A stretch of 64,000 nucleotides of DNA from Balanoglossus misakiensis (taxonomy: Eukaryota > Animalia > Hemichordata): assembly GCA_040954595.2 (NCBI GenBank), contig CM082578.2:5500831-5564830 (forward strand), in the 5' to 3' direction. A program made the position numbers and the translations under genes. Under the pieces are notes generated by a model. The model searched no databases and was not told the origin of the DNA. It saw nothing but the letters and a program-made list of their open reading frames with translations. Of this stretch, positions 16,580-61,499 are shown piece by piece. Numbering within the stretch: position 1 is the stretch's first letter; each line of letters opens with the position of its first letter.

Positions 16580-17152
16580 AGGTATACGGTCACCTATGCA
16601 AATATAGCTACACTTACCATGGCAAATTGAGATCTAGCCAATCACAGATTTTCAGTGGGTGGCACACGCAAAAAAGGAGCGCCACCATGTGTTCTTTAGA
16701 ACGCTCAAATACTCCATTTCTGACATATATGGGCGTATGTTTAGTTTAGTTTAGTTTAGTTTGGTTAGGGACTAAATATCCTGAGATAATGATGTCCCAT
16801 CAGAGTCTAGTTCGGAAGTACTGGTCAATAAATAAAAAGTCAATGATGCCCATAGATAAGAGTCCGGCAATGAGTTCCAATTCTCTAGTATAGTTCAGAG
16901 TTCAATATTCATGTAAATATCCTCCATGGTGTAATACACACTGTGACACATAAATAAATGATTCATCATTCTCACAAATAAATTCTCGAAATAAAATCTC
17001 ACAAAATAGTTCAATAGCAAGTTCTCTGACGCGAACAGGGAAACAGTTCACTCTTGTATAATCCATCAAATTCTGGTTTGGAAGTGATGGTCAATGTTAT
17101 TTTTGAAATCATTGACATCCTTAGTATGTAAATTAGAGGTGACAGTATACCT
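16580..17152. mobile_element. Non-autonomous Kolobok element related to the 51643-59518 element
   Basis: TTAA|AGGTATACGGTCACCT ... AGGTGACAGTATACCT|CTAA. Subterminal AGCCAATCACAGATTTTCAGTGGGTGGCACA...GCGCCACC matches ~51669-51720. Internal (TTTAG)n at ~16740. Confidence 0.8.
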
Positions 17153-28875: not shown

Positions 28876-29182
28876 TTATAACACACCATGCAGCGAACCC
28901 TCGATCGTGATTCGTCAATACGACGTCACGCGACCTTAGTCATTTCGAACTGTTGCCTGGGGCATCAGTTCGATCGGTTTGGTGTGTTATAAAACACATG
29001 ATGGCTGACATATTCGGGCAACAGTGTATTTTTAATGACCTCGGGACTGCCAGTCACACCAAAACAGTCTGTTTCCCCTCGGGCTATGCCCTCGGGAAAA
29101 CAAGAATGTTTTAGTTGTGACTAGCAGCACCCTCGGTCATCAAAATGCACTGTTGCCCTCATTGTCAGTCATCATGTGTATA
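28876..29182. mobile_element. Double-hairpin MITE, family B, copy 1
   Basis: Module 1: TTATAACACACCA (28876) / TGGTGTGTTATAA (28980-28992). Module 2: ACACATGATGGCTGACA (28994) / TGTCAGTCATCATGTGT (to 29179), with centre CCCTCGGGCTATGCCCTCGGG. A reverse-complement copy lies at 50809-51155. Confidence 0.8.
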
Positions 29183-30039
29183 ATATCACATATGCCGTGT
29201 ATTATTTACAGCATGAACATATGGCATCTGCTACGTTGTATTTGCACCTCTGGACCGAACATTTGAGAAATAACAAACAGCAGCAAACGTTCAAATGGCA
29301 TTATTTTATCAAAGCCCACTTTATGCAACGAGGTAATGCTGTGGTGATTTCGATTGTCCATGTACCACAAGCAGTATAGAATAACTGCCAATATTCAAGT
29401 AGTAATGCGCAAACGAACACGATATTGTTTCACAATATTATGAAATGGAAATAAACAGATAGATGTATTTGCAGTCGTTGTTAATGTACGTCATGTATGA
29501 TCAATAAAGCTCTTGAGTAAACCTAACGTCCCGATGAGGTTTTATCTGACACTCGTGTATTACAGGGAAAATTAATTGAGTGTCCGGTTTTGATTTCTGG
29601 GTTTGACAACTTTCTTTATCGCTGGCCAGTACAGAAGTCAAACATTGTAGCAAGTTGAATTCCAAAGGGAGCGTACGCATATTGTCTCTGCAATCCATCG
29701 CTTCACTGCACACGTTCACACAATCAGACTTCGCACGCAATTTGTATTTAAACTTTTCATGCTTTTTTAAATAATCCTTCAAACGTTGAACAAGAAAATT
29801 CCAGTGGTGGTTCAAGTTAAATAGTTTGATTTGTGACCGATAATAAACTGAGTAATAATATACAGACGCCATGAAAAGAAATGGAAGTTGAACTTCCATA
29901 TTGTCCACCCACATGACCAAAGTACAACGCTTTCCCAACGCTGAACTCAAAACAATCAACATGACTGAACTTTAGATGTAAATCGTATCATGATTGCCGA
30001 TGTTTCAGATTATTCATCTACTACTATATAGCCAGTGTT

Positions 30040-30350
30040 TCCGTCAAATATTTTTCTGCATCTTGGGGCAAGTAATTTCTCTGACGGCATCATATACAGC
30101 GACAGACAGTTTGGCATGAAGGAGTCTTTCACTTTACTGACAGTGTTCGACGGGGTTCAGATCGAGAGAATATGCCTCGGTCATCCAACTTGAACTTTTT
30201 GCTGACAGATGCTAAAGTACCCCTTGGAATATATCCTGTATTTTTGTCGGCTCCATTTTCTTCAAGTTCAGACAAAGAAAGTGCTCGCAGATCTCTACTC
30301 AACGAATGTCCACGTTGAAATTGCCTACCTTTGATTGATTTATGAAACAT
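30040..30350 (-). pseudogene. Internally deleted DD37E transposase (probable N-terminus joined to C-terminal motif)
   Basis: ATG at 30350: MFHKSIKGRQFQRGHSLSRDLRAL...GYIPRGTLASVSKKFKL, HTH-like. It is joined at ~30177 to AYSLDLNPVEHC...LLHAKLSVAVYDAVREIT in another frame. Confidence 0.6.
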
Positions 30351-30727
30351 TTTGGCGCTCTCACTCATCAGAATTGTTGACTGCAATCATGGACATGCTG
30401 CAATGGAAGAAACCAAACCAGCAGAGAGAGCCATACCCATCGTTTTTCTTTCATTGAAACGTTCAATATTACGCGAGTAATCATGGTGGCCTATTATTTG
30501 GTGAATTTTTGCAAAATATTGACTAGTTCTCCAAATTTTGCAAACTCTTCCGATAAGATGAGTAAGAAATGCAAGTGTGAGAATGTACGCTCGCGGCCCA
30601 TACCCCTCATTAAAAATAGTCGATCTCTGGCGAAGAAAAGTCGATACTTTTATGCAAATATTGTGCCAAGAAGGCGGAAACTTGAAAGTTGGCCGCGACG
30701 TAAACAGTACCTGCAAGTTCCCGCGAA

Positions 30728-31243
30728 ATGAACACACCCAGAGCAAGTTCGGTTGATGTTGAAGACTTTCTTCGAAATATTGATCCAATGCTTGAAAAAT
30801 ATGCCAGTGATTTTCGTCGGTTGGATTTTGTGAACACAACTCATATGAAATTTCTGGAACCAAGAGATCTGGAGAAGTTCACGTGCAAAGTTAGTGATGT
30901 TCACCGGAGAATGTTGCAAAACTACAAACACCCAGTTCAAAACTGGGTTTGCGGGATGAAAAAAGCCCAAAGGCGCACGAAGGACTTTAAGAAACAAGGT
31001 GACATCGTGATTGCTGACAATGCTCCGATACATCACCACGAAGGCGAACTGATTCTCTCAAACTGGTTGGAAACTCTTGGAATGGAATACACTTTCACTC
31101 CGGCATATTCTCCCGATCTGAATCCCGTCGAACACTGTTTCGGTAAAGTGAAAAAACTCTTGAAAGCAGAACGATTTCGCGGTCTCCTTCATGCCAAACT
31201 GTCTGTCGCTGTATATGATGACGTCAGGGAAATCACTTGCTAA
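30728..31243 (+). pseudogene. Chimeric ORF: SAM-like N-terminus fused to the C-terminal half of a DD37E transposase
   Basis: DNAPIH...PAYSPDLNPVEHCF with 37 residues between D and E; the first catalytic D is absent. The N-terminus VEDFLRNIDPMLEKYASDFRRLDFVNTTHMKFLEPRDLEKF has a SAM-like hydrophobic pattern. Confidence 0.7.
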
Positions 31244-32808
31244 GATACAGCAACATATTTGACGGAAACACTGGCTATATAATAGTAGATGAATAATCTG
31301 AAACATCGGCAGTCATGATACGATTTAAAGTTCAGTCATGTTGATTGTTTTGAGTTCAGGGTTGGGAAAGCGTTGTACTTTGTCAAGCGGGTGGACAATG
31401 TGGAAGTTCAACTTCCATTTCTTTTCATGGCGTCTGTATTCTCAGTTTATTATCGGTCACAAATCAACTATTTAACATGAACTACCACTGGAATTTTCTT
31501 GTTCAACGTTTGAAGGTTTATAAAAAAAAAGCATGAAAGTTTAAAAACATTGCATGCGAAGTCTGATTGTGTGTACGTGTGCAGTGAAGCGATGGATTGC
31601 AGAGACAATATGCGTACGCTCCCTTTGGAATTCAACTTGCTACAATGTTTGACTTCTGTACTTGCCAGCGATAAAGAAAGTCGTCAAACCCAGAAATCAA
31701 AACCGGACACTCAATTAATTTTCCCTGTAGTTTCATTGGCAATTTACTAGTTTGTCATATTGCAGAGTCTCTCCACGGACCGAGGTCTGATTTATCACTA
31801 ATGTTACGCTCATGTTTTATTCATTATCACATCCGAATAGTTAGCACATGTCGTGTACTTTTCAACATGTTTGTATGTTATGTTCACATGCTCCGTTTTG
31901 TGTTCATTGCCTGTACATGTATGCTACCATTTCACGTTTTCATAGACTAGGTCAGAAACAGAAAATTAGCATGTGCCTGATATAAAAATAGCTTGCTCAG
32001 TGGGCGATATTTCATTTGTGTTATTTTCATACACCAAATACAATAAAATGGCAGAGGATTGGAAAAGTATATACAAATGCCCCAAACACATTACGGCCCC
32101 TTAACTGGGCAATTATGCGATGGGTATGAAATGAAACGTTCATATCTTAAATTCTTTCCCGCCAAACTTTGTTTAATACTTGCATTAAAATGCTCTAGTT
32201 CTGTTCTGATTTATATTCAAAATTTATACCAGTAATGATTCTTAATCTTATGATGTTGTACATCACGGAGCACTAATCGGCATTCATATTTAGATTTGCC
32301 ATTGTGTGTGCCCACAACTGTTTCACCATACATGTATATTCAAGGTTAAAATACTGTTTCACCATATATTCAAGGTTAAAATAAACATCAATATCATAAT
32401 AATGCTTCTTAACAGCTGTCGTCACGTGTGACCAACGGCAGTACCGAAATAAACATGTTTTTATGTCCACATTTGTGTAAGTTGTGAACATTGTATTGAT
32501 TGTTGACCCGATGCAACAGCTGTCAAGTTGAAAAAAATCGGTAGAAGTACTCGCCTTAGAAAAGACGAAAATAATGATATGCCGGTTTAAATAAAGGTAC
32601 GTATTTTCGAAAGAGCTGCCACCTGTAACCCCATTGTATAAACAGAGGGAATTCCTTGCGGTTGTTCATTACAATTGCATGAAATCCATTCACTGGGATA
32701 CGGGAGTGACAATGATTAATAGCAACATATATATGACAAGCTTCACTGAGACAAATTAACTGCAACCGCGAGGTTTAGAATTACATTTTATAAACCCACA
32801 TCAATGCC

Positions 32809-36940: not shown

Positions 36941-37325
36941 ATATTTGAATTCACTCTGTACTGCGTATTCGGCCGGGTTTTGAGTAAACTAACCCTAAAA
37001 ATCAAAATTCAGAACCTCGGCTTAATAACTTTTTAAAAATATATGGTTCGCATGTGCTGGTACATTGTCTTTGTGGGGGAAATACACAGCGCGGGTAGAA
37101 TGCAGCGCCACCTTAAGTCGTTCGTTTTTGTTATGGGCGTATCTGCATACTATCGTTCAGTCACCCTAGCGCCTGTCACACAAATGTAAAAGCAATGGAA
37201 TAGCGCACATCACTGTATGCGCTCGTTGCTGTTGAACAGCCGTGGCAGACGAGTTGGCGACACTATAAACGTTGGGAAACACTGGAGGTTTGGAGAACAG
37301 CAGCGCCGGATCAATAGGAACCAGA

Positions 37326-38309
37326 ATGCAGATCACCGGCAATGAAACCGACAGACTTAACGACACCAGCGGGTTCTGTGAATTCGACTTTCAGCCGTAC
37401 TTTGTGGTGGGTGTGACGATCACAACGTTTGGTATAATAGGAAACTTGGCTTTTCTGTTCGTTATCGTCCGTGTGCCCTCTATGAGGACAACGACCAACG
37501 CGTACTTGTTTAACTTGGCGATAGCCGATCTGATTCATCTGATAACCCACTTGCTCATGTGGATGTGTCGAATAGTGGAGGGAGAGGATTGTTTTCTGCG
37601 GGACTATTCGTGCCAAATGATCATTCCTTCCCGCGTCAGTCAGTACGTGTCCATGTTTACGGTGACGGTGTTGAGTATCGTGCGGTACCTCGCTCTGTGC
37701 AAACCCATATTCTACAGAGATGGCATCGTTAACAGGGCATACTGTGTCTGCTGGGTAATACTGATAATGTGGTTAGTCTCAACCCTTTTGCCGTTGGATG
37801 CCTCCCTTCGCTGCAACGAGGAAGCCGTTCGCGCTGATAACATCATCTTCGCTGTGCTGGTATTCAGTCTTATGATTATTGTATCGGTTTTCTATTTTCT
37901 AATAATCCGACGAATGAAACGTTCATCGCGGTCGGTTCGTGGTCGCGACAAGCAAGTGATAAGCGTGTGCCTGGCAACAGCGGTTATATACTTCCTAGGC
38001 ACAGCCCCACTGACGACGTTGGGTGTTGTTCGCCTTAGCTTTCCCTTTCCGCCGTGCTCCCTGAAGATAAAAATAGCCAACAATATTGGTGTTCATCTAC
38101 TGGAAGTCAACTCAGCTGTCAATCCGATAATTTATAACATCCTCAGCTCAAAATTTAGATTGGCATTCTTGTCGGCGTTTGGGTGCGTGTATCGCCGAAC
38201 TCCAAATTCTGACGTCACCTGCAGGAACAACCGTTCGTCACTAAACCAACTCAACACTCGCGACACAGCCGCGGGCGAGGGAGAGCTGCATCTTCAAAAA
38301 CTGAAATGA
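37326..38309 (+). CDS. Intronless orphan class A (rhodopsin-like) GPCR, peptide-receptor-like, ~327 aa
   Basis: Seven hydrophobic segments. GN in TM1, MRTTTNAYLFNLAIADL in ICL1/TM2, Cys before TM3, VRY at the DRY position, W in TM4, NSAVNPIIY in TM7, helix 8 SSKFR. N-glycosylation sites NET and NDT. First in-frame ATG at 37326. Confidence 0.92.
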   Translation: MQITGNETDRLNDTSGFCEFDFQPYFVVGVTITTFGIIGNLAFLFVIVRVPSMRTTTNAYLFNLAIADLIHLITHLLMWMCRIVEGEDCFLRDYSCQMIIPSRVSQYVSMFTVTVLSIVRYLALCKPIFYRDGIVNRAYCVCWVILIMWLVSTLLPLDASLRCNEEAVRADNIIFAVLVFSLMIIVSVFYFLIIRRMKRSSRSVRGRDKQVISVCLATAVIYFLGTAPLTTLGVVRLSFPFPPCSLKIKIANNIGVHLLEVNSAVNPIIYNILSSKFRLAFLSAFGCVYRRTPNSDVTCRNNRSSLNQLNTRDTAAGEGELHLQKLK

Positions 38310-41930: not shown

Positions 41931-43420
41931 TGGGGTTGATTCACACTTTCTCTTTACACTGGAATTTTAATATTTACTCCCTTGTCTCTCTCACACAACA
42001 CACAGAACAAACACAGTTTCAGTCAATTAAAGATACAAGTTAGAATAATATTACACTGCCCGATTAATATCTACTACAGATTTTCAGAAATGGTGGTCGC
42101 ACCATATATTGAAAAGAATCATTAAAACATGCAAATGAGCACTTTCTTGATCCGAAACTGCATTGATTGGTTTTGTATTGTCAAAACGACCATCATTTCT
42201 GACGTCGAGTAAAATTTCTTCAAATTATTATTGTATTAAATCCGTCATCTTCTAAAGCATTGCCAAACGTCAGAAAAAAAGCTTTATATTGATATAACTA
42301 CTGTTTTTGATACAAAACGTATTTGGCCGAGAAATGTATGATTAAAGGTATATCGTCATAAACCTATCCCGCCCTAAGACTATACACGAGCCATACCCAC
42401 ACATGTCACAAATATATCAGGTTATGCAAATTTGCTTTATAAATATCGATTGCTGTCAAATATCCACATTTTGTGCTTTCTCTGGTCAAATTGCGCACTA
42501 GATGTTCACTTTATTATCATGATTTTCAATGCCATGCAAGATACATGTAACTGCATTACTTCATACATGTATATATGATTTCACCAAGCGAAGGCTAACA
42601 TTTTACACAAGGCATGAGCTTAATAGCAGAGACCCAATTTGTACACCGGCAGATTGTACTATTGGAATGCATGGATATGACCCATGTATTCTACTGAATC
42701 ATCGTATATGGAGGTTCGACTACAAAGAGGCGGAAAGCAAATTACATTTTACAATGTCATTGACTTATGAGATAATCGAGGCAATCATTTTAAATCACAA
42801 CGATACTGCTAGAACATTATTAATGAAATATCTGTATAGATAGCTAATGTAGCATAAATTTATGGTTGTATCTTATACTGCAATAATATAGAAACCCAAA
42901 GCTAAAAAACATACAAATGCAACGCGTAAATTTGCAAACGTTATACTCGTGTGACACACGCTGAAAATGGTGAAACCATATCATCAATTGTCTGGTGCGT
43001 AGCGACCTATTTTCTTGTATGATTTCATAATCAAAATGGCGTAAATTAAACGGTTTTATTATAATATCTACCTGTACGTGAGATACGTATCAATCACTTC
43101 GAAAATATTGCCCAATTCAACCAAAACTGTACACATGCAATGTACTAGTATATGAAGCTGTGTTCAGCGGCGATATTTTATAACACTCATAGAATGGTTC
43201 GTGTCTTCAAATTTATGCCCTACTCAAATCTACTCCTAACATTTCTATTCATGTGTGATAACATTTAGACGTCGTACATCTTGTGACAGCTACATTGTAC
43301 AACAGCGCGAAATAATGCTGAAATAAGTCTTTCTGTGGAGAACGTGTTGAATAGCAGTGTTTTTTGAATTTGAAAATAGTGTTCGTCTCTATGAGGATTC
43401 AAATCACATACCAGTACTAC

Positions 43421-46400
43421 GGCGCGCCAAGTGTTTCAAAATTATTTATCATTATTTTATAGAAAATTGATGTCTTTTAGCAAAAAAAATACGTAAAAAA
43501 CACAAAAAACTGATTGGTGGTTTAAAAAACAACGAGTGTAAAAAGTAATCCATCGTGGAGTCAAAAAACAACAACAACAACAAAAAAACTAACACACACA
43601 GAAGAAAATCTCACCTGTTGTCAAAAAAACCCCACCAAGCTTACCAAAAAAAACGTCCACAAGGAAGTTGCAAAAAAACCCCACTAATTTGTCACAAAAA
43701 AACCACGCGCACATTTTTCACGAAAAACGCACACTTCACCCCACAACAAATACACACAAAGTATTAAAAAGAACACTCTTTGAAAAAAAAGAGAGACTAC
43801 AGCTTAAAAAATGCACACACCAGAACAAACAACACAGGCAAACATAGAAAAAACACGAACATGTTAGCCGTAAAAAACGGAGATATTTGTCACCGAAAAA
43901 ACCCGCACTCATGTCACCCCAAAACTAACGGGCCACTTAAAAAAAACGCAGATGCACTGAGGTTGCAAAAATAAGCACATTTTTAATCCCCCGAAAAAAA
44001 CCCAGGCAATTTGCAAAAAAAAAACACAGCAATTTGCAAAAAAAAAAAAATAGGAACATTTGTCACCCAAAAAAAACAGGCAATTTGAAAAAAAAAACGC
44101 AGAGCAATTTGCAAAAAAAAAATAATAGGAACATTTGTCACCCAAAAAAACAGGCAATTTGAAAAAAAACGCAGAGCAATTTGCACCAAAAAAAAAAAAA
44201 ATAGGAACATTTGTCACCCAAAAAAACAGGCAATTTGAAAAAAAAACGCAGAGCAATTTGCACAAAAAAAAAGTAATAGAAACATTTGTCACCCCAAAAA
44301 AACAGGCAATTTGAAAAAAAAAACACGATATAAAATTTGAAAAAAAAATATATAGGCACATTTGTCACCCAAAATATTCAGGCAGATCCAAGTTGTAAAA
44401 AATGGTATATTTGTCATCCAAAAAATAAAACAATCGTGTTTAAAAAAACGAGCATTCAGTTGTAAAAATAAATAATAGTCTTTAACAACTTGAAAAAAAA
44501 ACCGGACGCATTTGAAAGAATAGCGTATGCGCATGCGCCGAAAAAAAAAATGAGTGAGAAATGCGCTCCAAAAAAAAAAGTGAGAGATTTTGCTAGAGGA
44601 GTCTGGGTAATCTTAAAAAAAAACAGTGTGTGAAAATAAGTTGACTCGAAGAAGAGAAAAGAAAGGGGAAACACACAAACCGTCACACAGGACAAACAAC
44701 AGTCTCCTCATCGCCGAGGCGTACGCGTGATGATATGACAAGTGTTTACGTCTGTGAGGTGGTGTGTATCACTGTATGTGTCGGATAGAACGCGAGTCGA
44801 CTAGAATCCGAGTCGACTGAAGGTTACTGCGGTGGACGCGAATATATGGTCGCCATTGTGGGATTCCTTCGTGAAGGAAGTGAAGCCACTTGTTCGGGAC
44901 CACATATGACCGGAGCGTTGCGTTTAACATGGTCGAACGAACTGTCATTATGGACAACTCCTGCTGTAACCTGTGATGCTGAAACGTACAATAACTTTCC
45001 ATATTCTTTTGTACAGTACACAGAGTTTCAACGCGGATGACGCGGAGACGATCAACTAATTATGGACTGAGCGACTCCTTTGGGGTATTTGACCTTTTAC
45101 CAGCCAAATGTAAACAAACGATTTGCGGTGAATTCATACACATGACAACGATTTCCCGAAGATCATTCATACCCCACTTTGAAAAATACAACAAATAACA
45201 AACAGTTTCTAAATAAAATATTTTTTTCCCATATTTTTAAGTTGTCAAAACTGGGCTGATTTTTTGTATAGTTCGCTAGTACTGCACAGAAGACAGTATT
45301 AGTTGTGGGCACCATGCCAACTCTTACGTTATGGGCAACGTTCAGTTCTGCCGTTTGGGGTTTAGATTTGTCTTAAATTTCACGATTTCTGTAGACCAAA
45401 TCTAGAATAGCAAACCGCGGACGTAGTGCCAGTGGTGTCATGTTTGACTGTGTGGTATCATGACGGTATCATGTTTATGTGGTCCCGAACAAGTGGCTTC
45501 ACTTCCTTCACGAAGGAATCCCACAATGGCGACCATATATTCGCGTCCACCACAGTAACCTTCAGTCGACTCGGATTCTAGTCGACTCGCGTTCTATCCG
45601 ACACATACAGTGATACACACCACCTCACAGACGTAAACACTTGTCATATCATCACGCGTACGCCTCGGCGATGAGGAGTCCTGTGTGACGGTTTGTGTGT
45701 TTCCCCTTTCTTTTCTCTTCTTCGAGTCAACTTATTTTCACACACTGTTTTTTTTTTAAGATTACCCAGACTCCTCTAGCAAAATCTCTCACTTTTTTTT
45801 TTTGGAGCGCATTTCTCACTCATTTTTTTTTTCGGCGCATGCGCATACGCTATTCTTTCAAACGCGTCCGGGTTTTTTTTCAAGTTGTTAAAGACTATTA
45901 TTTATTTTTACAACTGAATGCTCGTTTTTTTAAACACGATTGTTTTATTTTTTGGATGACAAATATACCATTTTTTACAACTTGGATCTGCCTGAATATT
46001 TTGGGTGACAAATGTGCCTATATATTTTTTTTTCAAATTTTATATCGTGTTTTTTTTTTCAAATTGCCTGTTTTTTTGGGGTGACAAATGTTCCTATTAT
46101 TTTTTTGTGTGCAAATTGCTCTGCGTTTTTTTTTTCAAATTGCCTGTTTTTTTTCGGTGACAAATGTTCCTATTATTTTTTTTTTGCAAATTGCTCTGCG
46201 TTTTTTTTCAAATTGCCTGTTTTTTTTGGGTGACAAATGTTCCTATTTTTTTTTTTTGCAAATGCTGTGCGTTTTTTTTTCAAATTGCCTGTGTTTTTTT
46301 TCGGTGGATTAAAATGTGCTTATTTTTGCAACCTCAATGCATCTGCGTTTTTTTAAGTGGCCCGTTAGTTTTGGGGTGACATGAGTGCGGGTTTTTTCGG

Positions 46401-46891
46401 TGACAAATATCTCCGTTTTTTTATGGCTAACATGTTCGTGTTTTTTCTATGTTTGCCTGTGTTGTTTGTTCTGGGGGTGTGCATTTTTTTCAAGTTGTAG
46501 TCTCTCTCTCTCTTTTTTTTTTTACAAAGAGTGTTCTTTTTAATACTTTGTGTGTATTTTTTGTGGGGGTGAAGTGTGCGTTTTTCGTGAAAAATGTGCG
46601 CCTCTTTTTTTTGTCACAAATGAGTGATTTTTTGAGCAACTGCCTTGTGGACGTATTTTTTTCGGTAAGCTTGGTGGGGTTTTTTTGACAACAGGTGACA
46701 TTTTCTTCTGTGTGTGTTAGGTTTTTTTTTTTTTTTTTTTTGTTTTTTTACTCCACGACGGATTACTTTTTACACTCGTTGTTTTTTGAACCACCAATCA
46801 GTTTTTTGTGTGTTTTTTACGTATTTTTTTAAAAAAAGACATTAATTTTCTATAAAATAATGATAAATAATTTTGAAACACTTGGCGCGCC
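43421..46891. mobile_element. Foldback-type DNA transposon: ~1.45-kb inverted arms with internal tandem repeats and a 569-bp spacer
   Basis: Arms 43421-44906 and 45476-46891 are near-identical reverse complements starting GGCGCGCCAAGTGTTTC. GTACTAC flanks both ends. There are 5 versus 4 copies of a ~75-bp A-tract repeat (CATTTGTCACC core). Confidence 0.9.
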
Positions 46892-47109
46892 GTACTACCA
46901 GTACACACACAGAAGTAAAACTGCGCATGTGTATAAAATATCGCACTGTCAGGTTAGACCCCAAACACACAAAATAAAGCTAAAATGACGTCAATATATG
47001 ATTGGCTCCAAATGAAAGTGTTTCCTAAAACGTGGAAATGACACTGTATAGTTCGGGTGCCAGATACATGTGTGTCGGAAGGACTTACAACGACAACCTT
47101 TTCGGTCAG

Positions 47110-50808: not shown

Positions 50809-51155
50809 TATACACATGATGACTGACAATGAGGGCAACAGTGTATTTTGATGACCGAGGGCGCTGCTAGTCACAACTAAAACAGTCTTGTTTTCCCGAG
50901 GGCATAGCCCGAGGGAAAACAGACTGTTTTGGTGTGACTGGCAGTCCTGAGGTCATAAAAATACACTGTTGCAAGATTATGTCAGTCATCATGTGTTTTA
51001 TAACACACCAAATATGACACATACCACATCCAGGCAACAGTACCGGGCAGAAACCGATCGAACTGATGACCTAGGGAACAGTTCGAAATGACTAAGGTCA
51101 CGTGACGGCGTATTGGCGAATCACGATCGAGGGTTCCCTGCATGGTGTGTTATAA
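50809..51155. mobile_element. Double-hairpin MITE, family B, copy 2
   Basis: Reverse complement of 28876-29182, with an extra ~40 bp at ~51011-51050. Confidence 0.8.
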
Positions 51156-51774
51156 TTACAGTTATTCTCCCAGCCAGGGAAAGGGTTTTAATGCACAATT
51201 TTAGAGAGGCAAACTGTGGAAGAGATCGTAGACATTTCAGTACCCAGGGTTTCACCGTTTCTCCGGCAGTCATCACCTGGGATGCAACAAACCGCGTGAA
51301 TAATCAGAGTTTCCAATACTTAACCACTTAATATATTAGTATTATCTTGTGCGCTCATGATAGTATCTCGAGATCATGAGATATTATCTCGAGACCACGA
51401 GATAATAATGCGTGTATCCCTTATCACCGGTGTTCAGTTGGCATGCCTATATACATGCAGGTTAGGTACATGTATAATTTCAATTGGAAAAAAATGTTTA
51501 CAATTTATTCCTTGCAACAAATTGTAAATGTATCGATCAAAAACAGGTGTATATTTTGCAACTCTGGGAATACGATTATATTCATACAGTTCTATCAAGT
51601 ATCTGATAAGATGACATTAGGCATTTAGGCTTCAGGCGTTAAAGGTATACGGTCACCTGAATTTGAACAGCCAATCGCTGATTTTCAGGGGGTGGCACAA
51701 GCGAAAAAAAGGGCGCCACCTAGCGACCGTTACTGGCTGGCTGGCTGGGTTGACCCCCTGCGTCGGGTCATAAA

Positions 51775-54700
51775 ATGGCAGACGACAAAGTTGTTGTGCG
51801 GGGTCGGGGACGACCGAAAAAATCCCCGAGCAAGAAATTTTCACGTGCAACGTACGAAAAATTAAGAAGAAGAAAACGCATTGTGCTGTCCGAGTCTGTA
51901 TATTTATCCTGGAGAAGTATCAAACAATCTTCGAGCCGTTTTCACCGTGTTTCGGACAGCGATTTTGCAGGTTTACTTCTGCGGTCTTTCACCTTGACGT
52001 AAGTACATGTACATAGTACCTCCGTAGAATACGAGAGAAAACGGCCCCACAACGAAGACTTCCTCGAAACGAAAAATAAGGCCTTTATACGAACTGAAAT
52101 CGTCCCTTTATAACCTCAGCTTCTTGTCGATTTTTATTTATTTATTTTTATTTTATTTTTTTGCTGGCGCAGAGACACTCGATCACTGTCAGGTAATCGT
52201 GTGAAGGCTATGTCGGCACCGTACCCGAACTATCGCTAGGGATCACTGCCAATTTGTACAATTTTTGTACATCTTTTTGAAATTTGTTTCAATCGCAGCC
52301 TGCCTCCACGAGCACGTTGAAGCTTTTCTCTCTTTTCATGCTCTTCCGGAGACGTAGCGTGAGGCCATATATATGCGTGAGACCGTCTTCGTTGTGGGGC
52401 CTTTTCAACACCCTCCTTATTCTATACTGTATAAGTCGATCGTTGCGTCGTCAACATGTTAGCTGTTCACGAAGTTTGAGGTTTCGGCAAGTTTTGTGTA
52501 GACAGTAAAATCTAGTGTGCCCAGAACGTTATTTTTTTCCATTTTATACCAGGTTGTTTCACGTCACCATGGCAACGGTATAAACTTCTAGGCCCTATTG
52601 TTATCCTTGGCTATACTGCTTGGAGCCATACGAGCTTATATTTATACTGGGATAGGGCCAGTACTAGTTCTGCAGTACGTACCCTTGTTTGATCCATAGT
52701 GGCTTTCCAGTACATTTATTTGATCTTGCATTTTATATATGTTTTTGTCAATTATTCTCTTGTAGGCATCCCGACACTTGTAAAATGTCAACTCCAGTAA
52801 GTAGTGCCAGAGGAAAGCCACAAATACTTACACCGAGGCAACTGTTTCCCGATAATTTGTCCCCTATACGCAATGAAAGGTAAGTGAAGAAAATATAACT
52901 TTTTGTATCTTGTTAAATTGTAAGGTGGTACTATTTCAGTTATAACTAGAAAAAAAATATATAGAAAAGTGAATGTTTTTCATGTTTTACATGTGTCATG
53001 AAGCGACGTCTTGTTCTGGGAAATGACTGCATTCTGTGGATCTATACCATACTATATCTATAGAAATAATGTCTCCAAATGTCTACAACCCATGAATTTA
53101 TCAGCTAAGCTGGTAAATTTGAACTATAAGATATATCTGCCTGTCATATTATGCATGACCTTAGTTGCCATATGACCTTTACTGTATGTTTGATTTGCTA
53201 TACATTTATTTCTATAGTGAAAAAGTTGATGTCTATATTAATCTACAGCAATATTGAGTATGCTGCATCCACACAGTCGAGTGCTGACCCAGTCACTGAC
53301 ACTATTGCACATAATAGTAATAGTCTTGTGGAGAGTGGCATCAATTTAGAGTGGGCAATGGCAAATGGTCAAACTAACAGAGATATTGTTGTTGAAGTTT
53401 GTGAGACTGATTCATGTCAGAAACAGGTTGATAATCATGTTGATAGTGGTGCTGGCTCTGACAGTGATACAGATGTTGATCCTCCTGAATTACTGGCTAT
53501 GGATGAGATTTGTTCTGATGACAGTGGTAGTGAAGGTGATGCTGATTTGGAGTTGTCTATTGTTGATGATCTTGCGGAAACTGATTTAAGAACCGCTGAG
53601 ATTGTTTGTGACCAGGGAGGGGGTTTAACACACACACAACAAACCACACAGCCAACACCTGCAATCACAGTGCCACCCACATGTACACAGCAGAAAGTAC
53701 ACAATTCACAGTCTAGACCAACTCTTTGGCCTCAACAACACATTGGTGATGGTGCTTCGGAATTTTCACAGGATATTGATACTGAGCATGATTTTGTTGC
53801 ATCTGAAAGGCTTTTGCCCCCAAATTACCACAATGCAATGGTTACTGATGATTTACTTTGGGAAGAGAAACAAGTAGCTGAGAAGCGATTTGTTTGCAAT
53901 CTGGGAAATCTTCGGAAACTATTTCCAAAACAGTGCCTGGTGAAAGGTTGTAGTCATAATGTAAAGGTTACAGAGTACGCAGTTGGTTGTACCGTAGTAA
54001 TTTGTTGGTTGTGTGAAGTTGGGCACAATGGAGAGTGGGCGTCCTCAGATACGGATGGCAGGTGTTACACCAATAATGTGCTTATGGCAAGTTCTATTTT
54101 TTTATCAGGGAATAATTATAGAAAATTTTCTTTGTTGTGCCAAGCCTTTAATTTACTTCATGTATCCGAATCAACATTCTATCGAATCACCCGTTTATAT
54201 ACTGCTCCAACAATTAATTGGTTTTGGCAAAACACACAAAATATGATGTTTAGTGCACTGGAAGGTTGTGCGGTGTTTCTGGCAGGGGATGGCAGAAGTG
54301 ATTCACCTGGATTCTGTGCACAGTATTGCTCGTATACATTTATGGAGAATAGGCTGGGCTATTTATTGCATAGTGTTTTGACTGACAAGCGAGAAGTAGC
54401 CCTTAAGAGTCCTGTAATGGAAACGCACGCCTTCAAGAAAGGTCTCCTGTTCCTGATGGAAAACTTAAATGTTCAGGAAGTAACTACAGATGCTAGTTCA
54501 CAAATTATGTCTGTGATGAGTAAGTTGTATTATATCTGGTAGTTGGCCATAAGGCTTTGTCAACTGAAAATAGATGTATATCTAATAAATTGTTATATAC
54601 CATTGAAAAACTCTATGTAGGTTGTTTGCTAAAGCAATGAAAAAGATGATTTCCAGCAATCCACATATATAATATCATGTAGTTAACTGCCCCAAATAAA

Positions 54701-56847
54701 TTAACAAACATGCATGGCTAATGTAGTTTAATGAATAATTGTCAGGCAAGTCCTGTCAGCACCTAATATTCAAGAAATGTATTACTTTAGTTTTTAAGTA
54801 TAATTAAGGTTACTATCAAATTTTTCGTTGTCCTTATTTTGGTAGTACAAAATGTACAATTGTAGCATGGTTGTGTTGATTGTACATAAAAATATTGTAG
54901 ACAGCTGAATTTGGTTTTCTTGTACATGTTTGTTTATTAGGTACATGATTATGTCTCAGTGATGTAATTGAGAAATAGCATGTTATTGTTTACCCATGCT
55001 TTATGTGTGAAACTGACCAGGGAAATGTTACAAATAATATAGCAATATTGAGAAGAGTTAAATTACTTATTAACTGTTTTTACATACCGTGTCAATTTCT
55101 GCAGTGATAGATAGTGAATTCAATTTTCTGAATGATAGACAGCTGATGCAATTATTTTTTTTCAGAAAAGGAACCTTTTAGTAAGGTAGAACACCAGCTA
55201 GATGTCTGGCATAAGTCAGCCAAAATAAATGCAAAATTGTCAGAGGTATGGTAATAAGAGGTACTTGTGAGACTTTTTGCATGTAGACCAAGTGGTGGGG
55301 AACTAATGGATTAATTGTGTAGTGTGCATTCATCCATCCAGAGCCTTTACTAAGACATAAACTTATTTCATTCTAGCTTGGTATTCAATTTTGGTATTGG
55401 CCAGTCTGTGACAGTGTCCTATGACATAGGTGTGCATCTCACTTAACTTGTGTCATGGTATGATTTAATACAGTCAAAGATGGCTGACACTAGTTGGCCA
55501 TTTCATTATGATTTTAAAGCCCAACCAGATCATATTTAGATGTACAGCCACAGTTGATAATATGATTGCGCATACATATCAATATGTTCATTCTGATAGA
55601 GATGTGTGTCACTAAATGCGTCCATTATGTTTCAGGCAGCAAATACTAAAGGGAATGCTGATTTGCTGAAATGGAAATCAGCCATCCGGAATCACTTCTG
55701 GTATAGCTCCCGAACGTGTGGTGGTGATGTTGATGTACTAAAGGTAATTAACTTTCAGTTTGTAAGATACAAAACAGCATGCAGCGCATTCTATTATAAT
55801 AGTCTATCTCTTAATCGTCTTAGAAGTGTTGTCTTATTTATTTTTATCCTTTTTATCTCATATCTGCCACAGAACAAATGGACCAGTATCCTACATCATG
55901 TGACAGGGACTCATGAATGGTTTGGAGGTGCATGTGATCATGGCCCTATTGATGATTCCACTAAATTACTTGATGCTGATTCACCACCTATGGAAGCTCT
56001 TCGACAGATTGTCATGGACAGAAACCTTCTCAAGTCATTAGTGTACTACACTAAATTTAGGTAATGTACATGTAGTTATTATTGTGTCAATTTTTCTGAC
56101 AGTGATTAAGAGCTTATCAGATAGGTTTATTGTCCGTTGTCATCCTTCTCTCCATTTGTTTGTCAATAATCAACTGGTCATACATTTTGTTGAAAATATG
56201 AACTGAATTGGCCGAATTATCAAAAGTTAAGAATTACTTGTCAGAATGTTTTGATGTAATAGTCATTGACTAAATGAGGCTCTCTAATATGAATATGTAC
56301 TTGCTCAACAGACATACAGGATACCTTGAATCCTTTCACAACACTTTGCTTATGTATGCATCCAAGAGGACATCATATAAGTAAGTATGCAATACACTGA
56401 CTACACATTATATGTTATTGGTATAGGACTCATGATACATAAAATACTGAAATATAAATGTTCATAACTGTAATCATTTTAATTTTCCTATGTAGGTATG
56501 AAAATATGAAAGCCCGTGTCTTGCTTGCAGCTATCGATCACAATCACCATTTACATCGCACACAAACCCGAACAAAGGCTGGTGAGCTGAGATATGCCAG
56601 AAAGTACAGCAAAAGATCACAGAGGTGGACTGCAGTGCCAGTCAAGGAGACCAAGACACACTCATATCTGCCGATCCTCACTGCTGTTATCCTGAATAAG
56701 AGAAGGACTGATCCCAAGGGGATTAAACAGCCAGCTGTTCTCTCCGAAGACGACCCACGCCATATCGCTCCATGTATTGCTCCTGTTCCTCCTGTGCAAA
56801 CATGTGTCATAGTCAATGAGCAAATATCAAGATTTCAAAATAAGTGA
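51775..56847 (+). CDS. Kolobok DDE transposase, 8 exons, ~801 aa
   Basis: Exons 51775-51998, 52766-52879, 53249-54519, 55166-55245, 55636-55743, 55873-56060, 56312-56380 and 56496-56847. All introns are GT-AG and phase-compatible with no internal stop. Motifs GDGRSDSPGFCAQY, VTTDAS, LDVWH, NHFWY, HTGYLESFH, LAAIDHNHH; AT-hook RGRGRPKK. Confidence 0.88.
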
Positions 56848-57423
56848 ATCAAGCTGATTCAAATTTTGTGGGCAAGTCCTTTATGGTCAGGTGATTGAAG
56901 TAAGATATTGTAAAAACAAAACAGGTAATTTTTGTTGAAAAGGCCAATTGTCTTTCCAATGTGTTCAAATGTATTCTGATAGGCGCAACACTGCAGTGTG
57001 GTATTTTCTCTCAAGAGATGTATATCCCCAGATGTAAAGTTTAACAATAAACCATAATGTTTTTTATCACATTAGTTTTCTCAGTGTTTTCATCATGGAT
57101 CGCCAAAGTTAGATGCAATGGAAAAGCACAAATATCAAGTTGTCTGACATACCTGTATAACAATGCAAGGAAACAGACACAAATGACATCATTTTAATGA
57201 ATGAATAAATTTATTTTCTTTAAAAGGCAACAACATGGCACAGGAAAAGCACATTTCAAATTTGAATTCAATAAAACCAGAACAATCATGCCAAAAAAGA
57301 CATCTAAAATTAAACTAGTACTTGTGGGATGTGGATATAAAAGTTGTCAAATTTGAACTTCACTGAAATTATATTGTTTAACACTGCACTTAGTTTAAAG
57401 CTATATTATAAAATAATGCGATT

Positions 57424-59407
57424 TTAATTCCTCCCAGAGTCCCGAAATCCAGTATATTTACCATCTCCAGAAGGAAATTTATCCCGTATCATCCACACCA
57501 CACAAGATGGGCACACAACACGGTTACCCTTACCAAGTCTACCGTACTCCCACATAACATACTGACGGTACCCAGAATGCCGCATTGAGCGATTGTCATA
57601 TGTGGGAGTACGTACAAAATCGTATGATCGGCTTGTGATGGCAGTGCGCAAAACTTCACCCATTGAACAAACTTGACGACAGTTGGGTGAAAGTGTGATG
57701 CAGGATCTCTTCCTACAGCAAGTCATTTCTCTTGCTGTAGGCATAGGCCTACATCTTTGGCACTTACACCATTCTGGGACCTTGTGCTGAGTTGGTGGAT
57801 AGGAAGATGGACCCTGGTCCTGCATTATTGTTTCTGCAATATTTGGATGCTTGTTGAGGATGCTTCTCAAGACCCCTTTCATTTTTCCCTCATCAAGTGA
57901 ATCTATATAAGTCTGCAAATAAAATAAAAAAAGCAAAAACGCACAGAAATGAAAATACACTCAAGAATTACAATATTATGCCAAAGCAGACAAATTTTGT
58001 GTACACAATCAGTGAAAATAAAATTTTCTTATATCTACTTTGTAATTAAATGAGAAAGATCACAGTTCAAGTATTGAAGATTGATATTCCTGAACCAGGC
58101 AATAAATAATTTTCACCTACCTCAACAGTGTCATTCCTTTCGTAGGTGGTCATTTGTCTGTCTTCAGCGTTTTCAACGGTACTGTCGATTTGTGTAGCCT
58201 AGCAGATATAAAAATGAAATTAATTAATTACCATATATTACAAAAAATACTAGTTTATGTCTATATTATACTATCTAATGTAACGTATAGGGTACATCAA
58301 AGTAAAAACACACTCTCTCTATGTCTGTGTGTGTCTCCCTATCTCCTCCCTCCCAAACACACATACGCTACCAATCGTCAAGCACCATCCTTTTCAAGGC
58401 TACTAGGCTTGTTTGTGGAAATTGGCCCATTCATGAGCAGAAAACATATGACCCTGAAAGTACCCTAACCATTGAATATAACAAAGCCCTAAGCTGTCAA
58501 CAAACAAACAAAAATGACCATTCTTGTAAACAAACAAACAAAATTTTTTTCTGTTTCTTATATCAATCAACAACAAAAACACACTCTACAAATGTGTGCT
58601 GGAATACACTGCACAGGTTGATAATAAGTTGATAGAAAACAAATACTTTTATATTAAATTATCATTTTGCTGAACAGGCTGACCCGGGCATAAATTATGG
58701 GTGTTTATCTAGAAACCGTAAAGAAATAACAGTTGCAGGCGAGTCAAAGATGCAACGTATGTATGTACGCATACGTCAGTTCAATCTCAGCCATATCGTG
58801 ACCGTCGCGTCGCGTCGCCGAACGAAAGTGCAAGGCAACAGATACTTTACTTCCTGTGTTTTCACCGACTGAAAGCAATGAAACTTCCTTCCTACGGTAT
58901 GATAATACAAATTTTGTTCAAAATAGTGGACTGTGCTATATAAACAATGTCAAACAAAAATGTAAACGATGTCTCGAAAAGCGATAACTACCAGGACAGC
59001 CGAAGAAGTACGTAGGCTGAGTACGGGGACTGCCTCCGGCCACTGCAGCCGGTAGACAAGCCAAGACTGCTCGATATGGAAAGTAAACATTCCCTGCGGT
59101 GTATCGTTATAGTAACGCTATCGCCAACTAACACACGAAAACATGAAAAATAATCCTGAAATACTATTAATGACATCGTACTTACTCTGTTTTTGCACCG
59201 ATGTTGGTCGCAGCTGCACTGGTCGGGTATGCAGTGCCCGCGTGACGCCTTCTTACACGGACAGCTCCGCACACAAGCTCCCTTACAATTACAGACACAG
59301 ACTGTAACTTCCCCGCAGTCCATTACATTTGAAAATCCTGCTTCGATTTCGCTAAAAATAGATATTGCGGACTGTCGCCCACTCTGTTGTTGTTGTTGTT
59401 GGTCCAT
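57424..59407 (-). CDS. KolX: KolX accessory protein: N-terminal CXC-like Cys cluster plus C-terminal P2X7-ballast-like Zn domain; 3 exons, ~262 aa
   Basis: Exons 59407-59186, 58198-58121 and 57912-57424, all phase 0 and GT-AG. C-terminal WCKCQRCRPM...E..CC, RHSGYRQY..W, LGKGNRVVCPSCVV..IR..FP, YTGF. Confidence 0.85.
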
Positions 59408-61499
59408 AGCGGTGTTTAAAAATGGCGCCTTAGCAACAATCAGTCAGACGGCCTTTCACATACGTCACGCCTCTTTTACCATATATAGAATATGCAAATT
59501 TCAGGTGACTGTATACCTTTAAAGTGAAAACCTTGTGCGTCTTGCTTTAAAATTCCTTGCCTACAGTATGGGGTTCTGCCAATCAATAAGAACTATACTA
59601 ATTATACTAAATGTAAATCTTATTATCCATTTAAAGCTGATACAATGTATCTTTTAATTGTTCTAATTCAATGTTCTAATCAAATAAAACAAATCCGTAC
59701 ATTATATTATATAGCTCTATAATTCGTCAGTTGAGCTCTCTAGCAGTCCGATGAAAACAACAGTGTTCTACCTACTTATATACAAGACTCCCTGGTCCCC
59801 CAAATTTATTCGATTAATCAGTGACGCGCACACACGCAGAAATTGACTTGACAACTTGAAAAAGAAACCACTAAAAACGACGTCGCATTAACGCTTAAAG
59901 GTACCTCAGCTGACATTACTATTGGGTGCCAAAAGAACGCACGCAATGGCTTAACTTGTACAGCTATGGGCGTTTTGTCGACTTCGAATGAGGATCAATT
60001 AGTACAGGAAGCAACCTTTTCTAGGTCATTGGTTTCCCATACGCAAACAATCCACCATTCTCGGCTTCTTACCTTCAGATTACTCACGATTAACTGAACA
60101 GTAAGTCTTCGATCATGCTGAAAATATCGAGTAATGCGGTTGTGCGGTTTGATCTTGCATTCCAGCAAAACTCTTTTCATTAGACCCTTTATCCGGCAAT
60201 GGGTTGTTGTGTGGCGTCTGACTCACAGAGGAGTTGTTTTGATGCTAAACACAAATCTGGTAGTTGGAAAGCTAAATATTTATTGAGGAAATTATTTGTT
60301 GTGTCAGTCAATGTATACCATCATCCCCTCAGTGGCGAAACACTTATCTGCTCCATGATGAAGGATTTAAATTCCATGGAAACGGAATGGCCAATCAAGA
60401 TATTTACACAAGGTCCACGGTATAATACTGTACGCAATCGCTAGAGAACATTGTGCTCATGGCTATTTTGTTTATCAGTGGCATTGATCACTACAGTTAG
60501 AAATAATCGCGGTTCGCAAAGGATATTCAGAATAAATTAAATACAAATGAAGGAATAAATTGCAAAACTACGATCGCCATACTGATCAAAAGGGGTACTT
60601 ACAAATTTAAAGCAATTTCTGTTATCTTTTTATGTAATATATTGCGCATGATGCCGTTACTCACTGTCAGCCTATAATCTCCTAAGATAAGGCAGCGGCT
60701 CGGAGAGTATATCATGAAATCGATATTTGAATCGATATTTGAACCCGTGATAAATACTCTTAAATGTGCTTTAAATATTATGTTAGCTTACCGTACATAC
60801 TAATTGATTTTAGGAATGTACCGTTATTGTGCCTGGATATTGTTAATTCGAGAAATATCTGAGAATATATTTGGAAGATTGATTCCAAACTTCTTTTTGT
60901 TAAGTAATTAACCATTCACGTTTTCCATCCTGAGCAAACCTTAGAGTAAGCATACTGGGTTAACGTGTTAGCTTCTCGATTTGAGGTTATTCTCTTAAAA
61001 GACTGAGTTTCCATTCCACTGAATTGAGTAGGTGGCATCAGGTGGTGAATATGTCTGAATATAAAACTGTATAAAGACGTGATCTCAGATCCCATAAGAT
61101 AAATTAATGTTTCAAGTGTGACAGTTTCAGATAAATTGTCACTTATGTGTAATAAGGAAGGGTGTACTCTACAGCGAACACTGGCTCCTTCTTACATGAT
61201 GTGTTTGTTGTTGTCATGTGTATGCTTTGTTCATTGGAAACTAAAGACACTAAAGATCACTTTCTATTTCAATGTCTGTAGGAACTACAGATTCTGCTCT
61301 CGATTAATACTGGTTAGACTTGCTCCCAGTTTATGGATGCGTACGTCAGCCACGAATTCGAAATTTAGCTCAGTATACCAGATACTGGCTCCAATGAAGC
61401 AAATGCACGAACAATCTTGAGAATTTTTATAAAGACCATAAATCACCAAGCAACTAGGGGGCTAGTGTAAACATGGATCACTGATGGTCAACAATGCGT

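What the first reader, a model, noticed from the sequence alone, without database searches (positions are those of the whole stretch)
57424..59407. Transposon-borne KolX joining a 9-Cys CXC-like domain to a P2X7-ballast-like Zn/GDP domain
Seen: three phase-0 exons join CNCKGACVRSCPCKKASRGHCIPDQCSCDQHRCKN (9 Cys ending C-x-N) to a domain with WCKCQRC...CC, RHSGY, PSC...IR..FP and YTGF. Established: KolX of Kolobok elements is related to the P2X7 cytoplasmic ballast, which binds two Zn ions and GDP/GTP through an RHxxY...R region. CXC/CRC domains in LIN54/tesmin and MSL2 bind DNA. Inference: this protein may be a DNA-binding, guanine-nucleotide-sensing partner that regulates or targets the transposase. 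I cannot tell whether this domain combination has already been described.
Basis: partly seen in the sequence, partly recalled or inferred. Interest (0 to 1): 0.78.

Follow-up and report, generated by a model that had tools for sequence, protein, structure and literature searches.

The report
Transposon helper with extra zinc cluster
An intact Kolobok jumping gene carries its known helper gene KolX (kin to the tail of the P2X7 receptor) with an extra nine-cysteine cluster in front; many relatives share this pairing, it seems undescribed, and it likely lets the helper bind DNA at the element's ends.

Summary
A 7,876-bp Kolobok element (51643-59518; TTAA duplications, 19-bp inverted ends) encodes an unbroken 801-aa DDE transposase and, facing it, a 262-aa three-exon KolX. 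Exon 3 is a P2X7-ballast domain (Pfam E 9e-29), a link published in 2022. Exon 1 holds a nine-cysteine, Asn-capped cluster; its sequence, fold and Atlas look-alikes are weak individually but nearly all CXC/pre-SET domains, EZH2 first. The fusion is not special to this copy: it occurs in Ptychodera, Nematostella, Exaiptasia and Clytia proteins and in 50 of 80 related loci, five in one reading frame. This scan noted it before in coral and oyster DNA. I found no paper describing it. The clusters are basic and under purifying selection; another KolX branch has Arg-Gly-rich tails instead. Best reading: a DNA-binding helper of the transposase, as in Harbinger (inferred, untested). A 52-bp subterminal block kept by a 573-bp non-autonomous copy is a candidate site. 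GDP sensing is weakly supported: three of five rat GDP residues are kept; two are missing nearly family-wide. New variant of a known kind; moderate interest.

The parts
51639..51642 (.). left TTAA target-site duplication
51643..51661 (+). left terminal inverted repeat, 19 bp, starts AG (Kolobok-type RR terminus)
   Evidence: 18 of 19 bases match the right end
51669..51720 (+). 52-bp subterminal block (includes a CCAAT word), kept by the non-autonomous copy; candidate protein-binding or promoter site
   Evidence: 87% identical to 16636-16686, E 7.6e-12; function inferred
51775..56847 (+). Kolobok DDE transposase gene, 8 predicted exons (51775-51998, 52766-52879, 53249-54519, 55166-55245, 55636-55743, 55873-56060, 56312-56380, 56496-56847), 801 aa; D460, D527, DxxH 549-552, E668; N-terminal AT-hook-like word; no THAP pattern
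   Evidence: all introns GT-AG, no internal stop; THAP pattern absent; motifs match the Kolobok rows of Data S5 of PMC9587614 by eye
57424..57912 (-). KolX exon 3: short conserved, probably helical segment (about residues 101-130) followed by the ballast domain
57442..57816 (-). P2RX7_C (ballast) match; seven Zn-site cysteines C149, C151, C154, C165, C166, C171, C237; R211, H212, R243 at GDP-site positions
   Evidence: PF20478 E 9.1e-29; PDB P2X7 E 6e-15; residue mapping
58121..58198 (-). KolX exon 2, 26-aa linker
   Evidence: best of 70 candidate exons against the Ptychodera homologue
59186..59407 (-). KolX exon 1 (ATG at 59407)
59189..59293 (-). nine-cysteine CXC-like cluster C39-N73, predicted Zn3Cys9
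59500..59518 (-). right terminal inverted repeat
59519..59522 (.). right TTAA target-site duplication
16580..17152 (+). 573-bp non-autonomous relative: same first 16 terminal bases, TTAA on the left, a one-base variant on the right, and the 52-bp subterminal block

Best explanation
This is the KolX helper gene of an intact Kolobok transposon, with a nine-cysteine CXC-like cluster in front of its P2X7-ballast domain, and it likely works as a DNA-binding partner that helps the transposase assemble on the element's ends. Shown: the element, both open genes, the two domains, and that the pairing is old, common in one KolX branch and under purifying selection. Inferred: the cluster binds three zinc ions and touches DNA through its basic Cys3-Cys4 loop; the short helical segment dimerises the protein so that two weak CXC units act together (one lineage has two CXC units in tandem instead); the zinc-stabilised ballast, the part every KolX keeps, is the docking surface for the transposase; the 52-bp subterminal block is a candidate site. 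This would parallel the Myb/SANT partner of Harbinger transposons.
For: Element and genes intact. CXC kinship: all 14 PDB sequences returned by the cluster profile at E up to 10 are EZH1/EZH2 (best E 0.68); 12 of 28 aligned clusters hit Pfam preSET_CXC at E up to 1 (best 3.2e-7) and P0183 passes its curated cut-off; all 9 of 48,161 chains at Z 2 or more are pre-SET/AWS-type SET enzymes or LIN54 (best EZH2, Z 3.7, rmsd 3.0, 44 aligned); 6 of 10 Atlas structure rows are E(z)/preSET_CXC or TCR clusters (TM 0.68-0.73). Conservation: 7 of 156 ballast homologues, 50 of 80 related loci, 5 with both domains in one reading frame, 30 of 36 loci with at least 1.3 kb upstream; pN below pS in 81 of 81 pairs, pooled 0.28 against 0.80. 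Tied to the transposon: 48 of 80 loci also match the transposase, and all 5 loci with two TTAA-flanked ends carry the cluster. DNA-binding hints: net charge +5 or more in 49 of 56 clusters, Lys/Arg within two residues of Cys4 in 43 of 56; 11 of 56 long N-termini are Arg-Gly-rich instead, none has both, and the two types fall on different branches of a quick tree; a THAP-ballast fusion is reported in Ixodes (PMC7016195). MSL2 and LIN54 CXC domains bind DNA and need a dimer or a tandem pair (PMC4248295, PMC4974476). Harbinger precedent (PMC9179366).
Against: No single sequence or fold hit for this copy's cluster is significant: Pfam gives it only EGF_Tenascin at E 0.064, Foldseek has 0 of 15 matches at E 0.001 or better, and the model is middling (pLDDT 60). 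The closest CXC type, pre-SET, had only a structural role assigned as of PMC3447885. This copy has the shortest loop class (3 residues, 4 of 56 clusters) and Ser at the MSL2 Arg543 position. Beyond the terminal repeat the two element ends share no clear repeated motif, unlike elements whose helper binds subterminal repeats, and the 52-bp block is at one end only. The transposase has its own AT-hook-like word and zinc-finger-like cysteines, so it may bind the ends unaided. 16 of 46 rows in the CXC branch lack the cluster as called, through loss or partial gene calls.
Confidence: 0.5

Rival explanations
1. KolX is a transcriptional or anti-silencing regulator of its own element: the CXC cluster binds the short promoters inside the ends (both genes start 110-135 bp from a terminus) or nearby chromatin, and sets transposase output without joining the cutting complex.
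For: Start codons lie 132 and 111 bp inside the ends; the conserved 52-bp block lies upstream of the transposase ATG and holds a CCAAT word; known CXC proteins are transcription or chromatin factors.
Against: The non-autonomous copy keeps the block although no other part of it matches the element's genes, which fits a transposition site better than a promoter, though it may be leftover homology.
Confidence: 0.22
2. KolX is a GDP/GTP-gated switch: the ballast binds a guanine nucleotide as in P2X7 and the nucleotide state controls DNA binding or transposase activity.
For: Arg at the 546 position in 150 of 157 rows, Arg at 578 in 147 of 154, His at 547 in 88 of 157; this copy keeps all three. PMC7016195 argues from models that invertebrate domains may bind GDP. 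Recalled, not checked here: the P-element transposase, of a superfamily that shares the C/DxxH signature with Kolobok, uses GTP as a cofactor.
Against: Arg574 is Val in 135 of 156 rows (at most 4 can be Arg) and Lys583 is Ser/Asp/Ala/Glu/Asn in 147 of 150, acidic in 53. In P2X7 a helix of the neighbouring subunit helps form the pocket (PMC9859053), and that part lies before the stretch that KolX matches. Even in P2X7 the site has no known function and no sign of exchange.
Confidence: 0.13
3. The cluster is a sequence-blind basic tether for DNA or RNA (target capture, nuclear retention), interchangeable with an Arg-Gly-rich tail and not essential; the ballast does the core job.
For: Arg-Gly-rich tails replace it in another branch; the Cys3-Cys4 loop varies from 3 to 18 residues with no fixed reading residue; many KolX proteins are annotated with neither module.
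Against: Nine cysteines invariant across the 28 aligned clusters (rows were chosen for the cluster), Asn cap in 46 of 56, purifying selection; loop variation could equally reflect changing specificity.
Confidence: 0.15

Closest known systems
KolX of the Kol0 lineage of Kolobok transposons (type family Kolobok-1_XT; Kojima and Bao 2022, PMC9587614)
   Same: Second gene of a TTAA-duplicating, RR-ended Kolobok element; C-terminal ballast fold with seven conserved cysteines.
   Different: The text that I could read describes only the ballast part (0 occurrences of 'CXC'). Here an N-terminal nine-cysteine cluster is added. Figure S6, the KolX alignment, is an image that I could not read and may show such N-termini.
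P2X7 cytoplasmic ballast (Pfam PF20478; PDB 6u9v, 9e3q) and the stand-alone Nanor/ZCD proteins (Rump et al. 2020, PMC7016195)
   Same: All seven Zn-site cysteines and three of five GDP-site residues kept.
   Different: No channel; Arg574 and Lys583 equivalents missing; Rump et al. call the N-termini of these proteins 'without obvious homologs', with THAP and TolA exceptions in Ixodes.
CXC superfamily: EZH2 pre-SET CXC (PF18264), MSL2 CXC (PF16682), LIN54/tesmin CRC (PF03638)
   Same: Nine cysteines in CXC order with the Asn two residues after Cys9; closest in spacing to EZH2's units.
   Different: Single copy here; Cys3-Cys4 spacer of 3 (consensus 4-7; EZH2's first unit also shows 3); no MSL2 Arg in register, no LIN54 Tyr; no SET domain.
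Myb/SANT partner protein of PIF/Harbinger transposons (as summarised in PMC9179366)
   Same: Works-like comparison: a second, element-encoded protein with a DNA-binding domain beside a DDE transposase.
   Different: Unrelated fold; binding to ends, to the transposase and joint nuclear import are shown for Harbinger and only inferred here.

Membership tests
Kolobok superfamily | TTAA target-site duplication | tested here: met
   TTAA at 51639-51642 and 59519-59522
Kolobok superfamily | 5'-RR ... YY-3' termini with inverted repeats | tested here: met
   both ends read AG inward; 18 of 19 bases match; definition from PMC9587614
Kolobok superfamily | DDE transposase with C/DxxH signature | tested here: met
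   D460, D527, DVWH 549-552, E668 in a stop-free 801-aa model
Kol0 lineage | second gene KolX with ballast fold | tested here: met
   PF20478 E 9.1e-29
Kol0 lineage | placement in the Kol0 clade of the transposase tree | not tested
   no transposase tree was built; motif likeness to the XT, BF, NV and CGi rows of Data S5 seen by eye only
P2X7 ballast / ZCD | seven Zn-site cysteines | tested here: met
   C149, C151, C154, C165, C166, C171, C237 align to 477, 479, 482, 498, 499, 506, 572; that these seven are the ligands is recalled, consistent with the three clusters in PMC7016195
P2X7 ballast / ZCD | full rat GDP site (R546, H547, R574, R578, K583) | tested here: not met
   3 of 5 kept; R574 is V239, K583 is S248
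P2X7 ballast / ZCD | actual Zn and GDP/GTP binding | not testable with these tools
   needs purified protein
CXC superfamily | nine Cys in CXC order plus Asn at Cys9+2 | tested here: met
   C39, 41, 45, 49, 51, 59, 64, 66, 71 and N73
CXC superfamily | published spacing consensus (Cys3-Cys4 spacer 4-7) | tested here: not met
   spacer is 3; EZH2's own first unit has 3 as well, so the rule is not strict
CXC superfamily | CXC fold | tested here: inconclusive
   model pLDDT 60; all 9 rows at Z 2 or more are pre-SET/AWS/LIN54 but best Z is 3.7; Foldseek best E 1.9
CXC superfamily | passes a Pfam CXC cut-off | tested here: not met
   this copy has no CXC hit; the relative P0183 passes PF18264
DNA-reading CXC (MSL2, LIN54) | Arg (MSL2 R543, next to Cys544) or Tyr (LIN54) minor-groove residue before Cys4 | tested here: not met
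   Ser48 there, Arg47 one earlier; across 56 clusters Arg 11, Tyr 0, Gly 28; the LIN54 Tyr register is recalled
DNA-reading CXC (MSL2, LIN54) | DNA binding | not testable with these tools
   needs EMSA or SELEX

The most novel reading that the evidence does not exclude
CXC-KolX is a guanine-nucleotide-gated DNA-binding cofactor of a cut-and-paste transposon: a CXC arm reads the element's end, and the ballast binds GDP/GTP and licenses the transposase. This would be the ancestral job of the domain that became the unexplained tail of the P2X7 receptor, and this intact element would let it be assayed directly.
Probability: 0.12. Interest if true: 0.8.

Novelty: new variant of a known kind. Interest (0 to 1): 0.42.

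Why it matters
KolX and the P2X7 ballast share a fold whose job is unknown in both settings. A recognisable CXC-like module in front of the ballast, swapped for Arg-Gly-rich tails or THAP in other branches, is a concrete hint that KolX acts on nucleic acid. This copy is intact in both genes and both ends and has a non-autonomous relative that marks a candidate binding site, so an excision assay with and without KolX becomes straightforward. The architecture itself is widespread, so this locus is an example rather than a rarity.

Tried and rejected
No whole genome is held, so copy number and age could not be measured. RNA search: no RNA holder was listed; no reads were laid. Single-sequence fold of the Ptychodera homologue failed (pLDDT 32) and was not used. 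Complex prediction of a cognate transposase-KolX pair from locus L038 gave no answer (score 0.00, alignments not used); it counts neither way. A search with the Ptychodera cluster alone returned only itself, 1 of 5 candidates. The metagenome scan with the tandem-CXC alignment found no relative among 421 pattern matches. A PDB sequence search with exon 1 gave three weak hits (E 0.1-1.1, two scorpion toxins and a zinc-finger protein), rejected as cysteine-driven chance matches: they cover only part of the cluster and vanish with the profile. EGF_Tenascin (E 0.064) and metallothionein readings rejected: 1 of 28 members each. Cut8 hits to the helical segment (E 0.08-0.09) are below cut-off. No known family name could be assigned from the supplements of PMC9587614 (0 hits for two transposase words and four host words). 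No subterminal repeats shared by both ends beyond chance-length words. A TTTGAA word (LIN54-type site) follows the left repeat, but a single 6-mer is chance-level and the LIN54 Tyr is absent. The careful tree did not finish; only the quick tree was read. My first transposase model had three exon borders off by one and was corrected.

Full report
What is there. The finding lies in an animal genome (no assembly held). An inverted 19-bp repeat (18 of 19 bases match) bounds a 7,876-bp element at 51643-59518, with TTAA outside both ends and AG as the first bases. These are the Kolobok marks given in PMC9587614. On the plus strand an eight-exon model, all introns GT-AG, gives a stop-free 801-aa transposase with D460, D527, DVWH and E668. 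Both genes start 110-135 bp inside an end and point towards each other. The nearest named relative is XP_070540792.1 of the acorn worm Ptychodera flava (164 identities to the 262 residues), so a related host is likely, but I did not determine it.

The gene model. No RNA run was listed. Homology supports both junctions. The Ptychodera protein has the same cluster, linker and ballast. Exon 2 is the best of 70 possible phase-0 exons when scored against its linker (14 against -2), and including it raises the global score from 764 to 814. In related loci a GT follows C-x-N-x in 17 of 47 cases and comes one codon later in 6; an AG precedes the helical segment in 23 of 28 (some of these are intron-less copies where the AG is coding). 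Five loci (L001, L002, L003, L030, L079) have cluster and ballast in one reading frame, which shows the fusion without any splicing assumption.

The ballast. Exon 3 matches PF20478 (E 9.1e-29) and four solved P2X7 sequences (E 6e-15 to 5e-14; the other 2 of 6 hits were ribosomal S17 at E 0.5-0.6). That KolX has this fold, and probably gave rise to the P2X7 tail and to Nanor, is published (PMC9587614). All seven Zn-site cysteines are kept here, and each is conserved in at least 93% of the aligned rows of 156 homologues. Of the five rat GDP residues listed in PMC7016195, three are kept (R211, H212, R243); Arg574 is Val here and in 135 of 156 rows, and Lys583 is Ser here and Ser/Asp/Ala/Glu/Asn in 147 of 150. 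In P2X7 a helix of the neighbouring subunit helps form the pocket, and the site's function is unknown (PMC9859053, PMC8410900). Guanine-nucleotide sensing is therefore possible but weakly supported.

The cysteine cluster. It is real: a leave-out profile finds it at E 3.5e-8 among 1,298 segments of the window and 0 of 2,000 shuffles reach the score. It has nine cysteines and the Asn two residues after Cys9, which PMC3447885 calls the signature of the CXC superfamily; its Cys3-Cys4 spacer of 3 is one short of that paper's consensus, as is EZH2's first unit. No hit for this copy alone is significant, but four kinds of search point the same way: the 28-row profile returns 14 PDB sequences, all EZH1/EZH2 (E 0.68-7); 12 of 28 members hit preSET_CXC at E up to 1, best 3.2e-7, and P0183 passes the curated cut-off; a pLDDT-60 model aligns at Z 2 or more to only 9 of 48,161 chains, all pre-SET/AWS-type SET enzymes or LIN54, best EZH2 at Z 3.7, rmsd 3.0, 44 residues, with Foldseek mostly PRC2 at E 1.9 or worse; and 6 of 10 Atlas structure rows for the Ptychodera cluster are E(z)/preSET_CXC or TCR clusters, all under the service's naming bar. 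I take CXC-superfamily kinship as probable (about 85%), nearest the EZH2 type.

How common the fusion is. Among 156 ballast homologues 7 carry the cluster, 7 of the 56 with an N-terminus of 80 residues or more; the named ones are from Ptychodera, Clytia, Exaiptasia and Nematostella. A profile search among longer proteins returned 31 of 519 candidates, 14 with PF20478 precomputed, many with two clusters in tandem. In metagenome contigs 123 of 213 matches were relatives and the best 80 were kept: 50 of 80 have the cluster 232-1,252 nt upstream on the same strand, 30 of 36 where at least 1.3 kb of upstream DNA is held, 24 of 35 groups at 90% identity. These loci are redundant and the ranking used a cluster-bearing query, so the share is inflated. 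48 of 80 also match the transposase (23 of 33 loci of 4 kb or more), and the 5 loci with two TTAA-flanked ends all carry the cluster. In 81 of 81 pairs of same-length clusters with pS above 0.1, pN is lower (pooled 0.28 against 0.80; pairs are not independent and were chosen for intact cysteines). In a quick tree of 77 ballast domains (proteins with N-termini under 80 residues or over 400 residues in all were left out; 17 of the 50 cluster loci were picked by hand), all 30 cluster rows lie in one 46-row branch (SH-aLRT 91) and all 11 Arg-Gly-rich rows in another of 26 (94); neither reaches the 95 mark, and the label needs 10 changes because 16 cluster-less rows are interspersed. So the cluster marks a large, old KolX branch rather than this copy.

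How it most likely works. Shown: architecture, conservation, transposon context. Inferred: the cluster is a DNA-binding arm. 49 of 56 clusters have net charge +5 or more and 43 of 56 have Lys/Arg within two residues of Cys4, the region through which MSL2 reads the minor groove (Arg543 beside Cys544). Other KolX-like proteins put Arg-Gly-rich tails (11 of 56) or THAP (Ixodes) in the same place. Single CXC units bind weakly and act as dimers or tandems, which fits the tandem lineage and suggests a dimerising role for the conserved helical segment. By analogy with the Harbinger Myb/SANT protein, which binds the ends and the transposase (PMC9179366), KolX would help load the transposase. A 573-bp non-autonomous copy at 16580-17152 keeps the termini and one 52-bp subterminal block (87%, E 7.6e-12) and nothing else of note; that block is the first site to test. 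Against: this copy lacks MSL2's Arg in register and has the shortest loop class, the two ends share no repeated motif beyond the terminus, and the transposase has its own AT-hook-like word. I put this model at 0.5, an autoregulator or anti-silencing role at 0.22, a non-specific tether at 0.15 and a GDP/GTP switch at 0.13.

Novelty. 'Kolobok' with 'KolX' returns 1 paper, whose main text has no 'CXC'; searches listed no paper joining the two domains (listings only; the first 12-25 rows were seen where more matched). PMC7016195 says the N-termini have no obvious homologues. Not seen: Figure S6 of PMC9587614 (an image), the Repbase reports and entries, and McCarthy et al. 2019; they may already show or note the cluster. 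What I read: PMC9587614 passages, sections 3 and 10, supplement searches and the last part of supplement 3; PMC7016195 parts 2-3 of 6; PMC3447885 passages and section 9; passages of PMC4248295, PMC4974476, PMC9859053, PMC8410900 and PMC9179366. This scan had already noted the same pairing in coral and oyster DNA; those notes are unchecked and are not counted as support. Verdict: a real, apparently undescribed but widespread variant of a known transposon accessory protein, here in an intact and testable element. Interest 0.42.

Noticed in passing
window 16580-17152: 573-bp non-autonomous Kolobok copy with the same termini and a conserved 52-bp subterminal block; an ATGCAAAT/ATTTGCAT-like word sits next to a terminus both here and at the right end of the full element.
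   Followed up: partly
window 51775-51998: The transposase starts with an AT-hook-like word and a short conserved segment also seen in L034 and L076; the Atlas gives unnamed mollusc and chordate clusters (0.82-0.86) and a weak ribbon-helix-helix lead (0.77). No THAP pattern.
   Followed up: partly
L057:2695-6281: A different Kolobok-like element with a THAP-bearing transposase and a KolX-like frame downstream on the same strand, with no cluster hit; it hints that CXC-KolX may go with THAP-less transposases (one case only).
   Followed up: partly
proteins P0100, P0180, P0182, P0185, P0190: A KolX lineage with two CXC-like clusters in tandem, about 25 residues apart, like LIN54's arrangement.
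   Followed up: partly
window 29561-31729: Element with long inverted arms around a frame matching DDE_3 (E 3.3e-13) preceded by a weak SAM_2 hit (E 0.0017); probably Tc1/mariner-like.
   Followed up: no
window 43409-46903: 3.5-kb foldback-like element of nested inverted arms and 75-bp A-rich repeat units.
   Followed up: no
window 19414-25150: Inverted arms 5.7 kb apart, starting AAAGG after TT; possibly another TTAA-type element.
   Followed up: no
window 28876-29182 and 50809-51155: Two inverted copies of a roughly 300-bp repeat, 22 kb apart.
   Followed up: no
window 2904-3755: Frame matching Fringe-like glycosyltransferase (E 1.3e-15).
   Followed up: no
window 37269-38306: Single-exon rhodopsin-family GPCR (7tm_1, E 4.6e-24).
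   Followed up: no
protein P0193: An Acropora protein that carries the same kind of cluster at its C-terminus, with no ballast.
   Followed up: no
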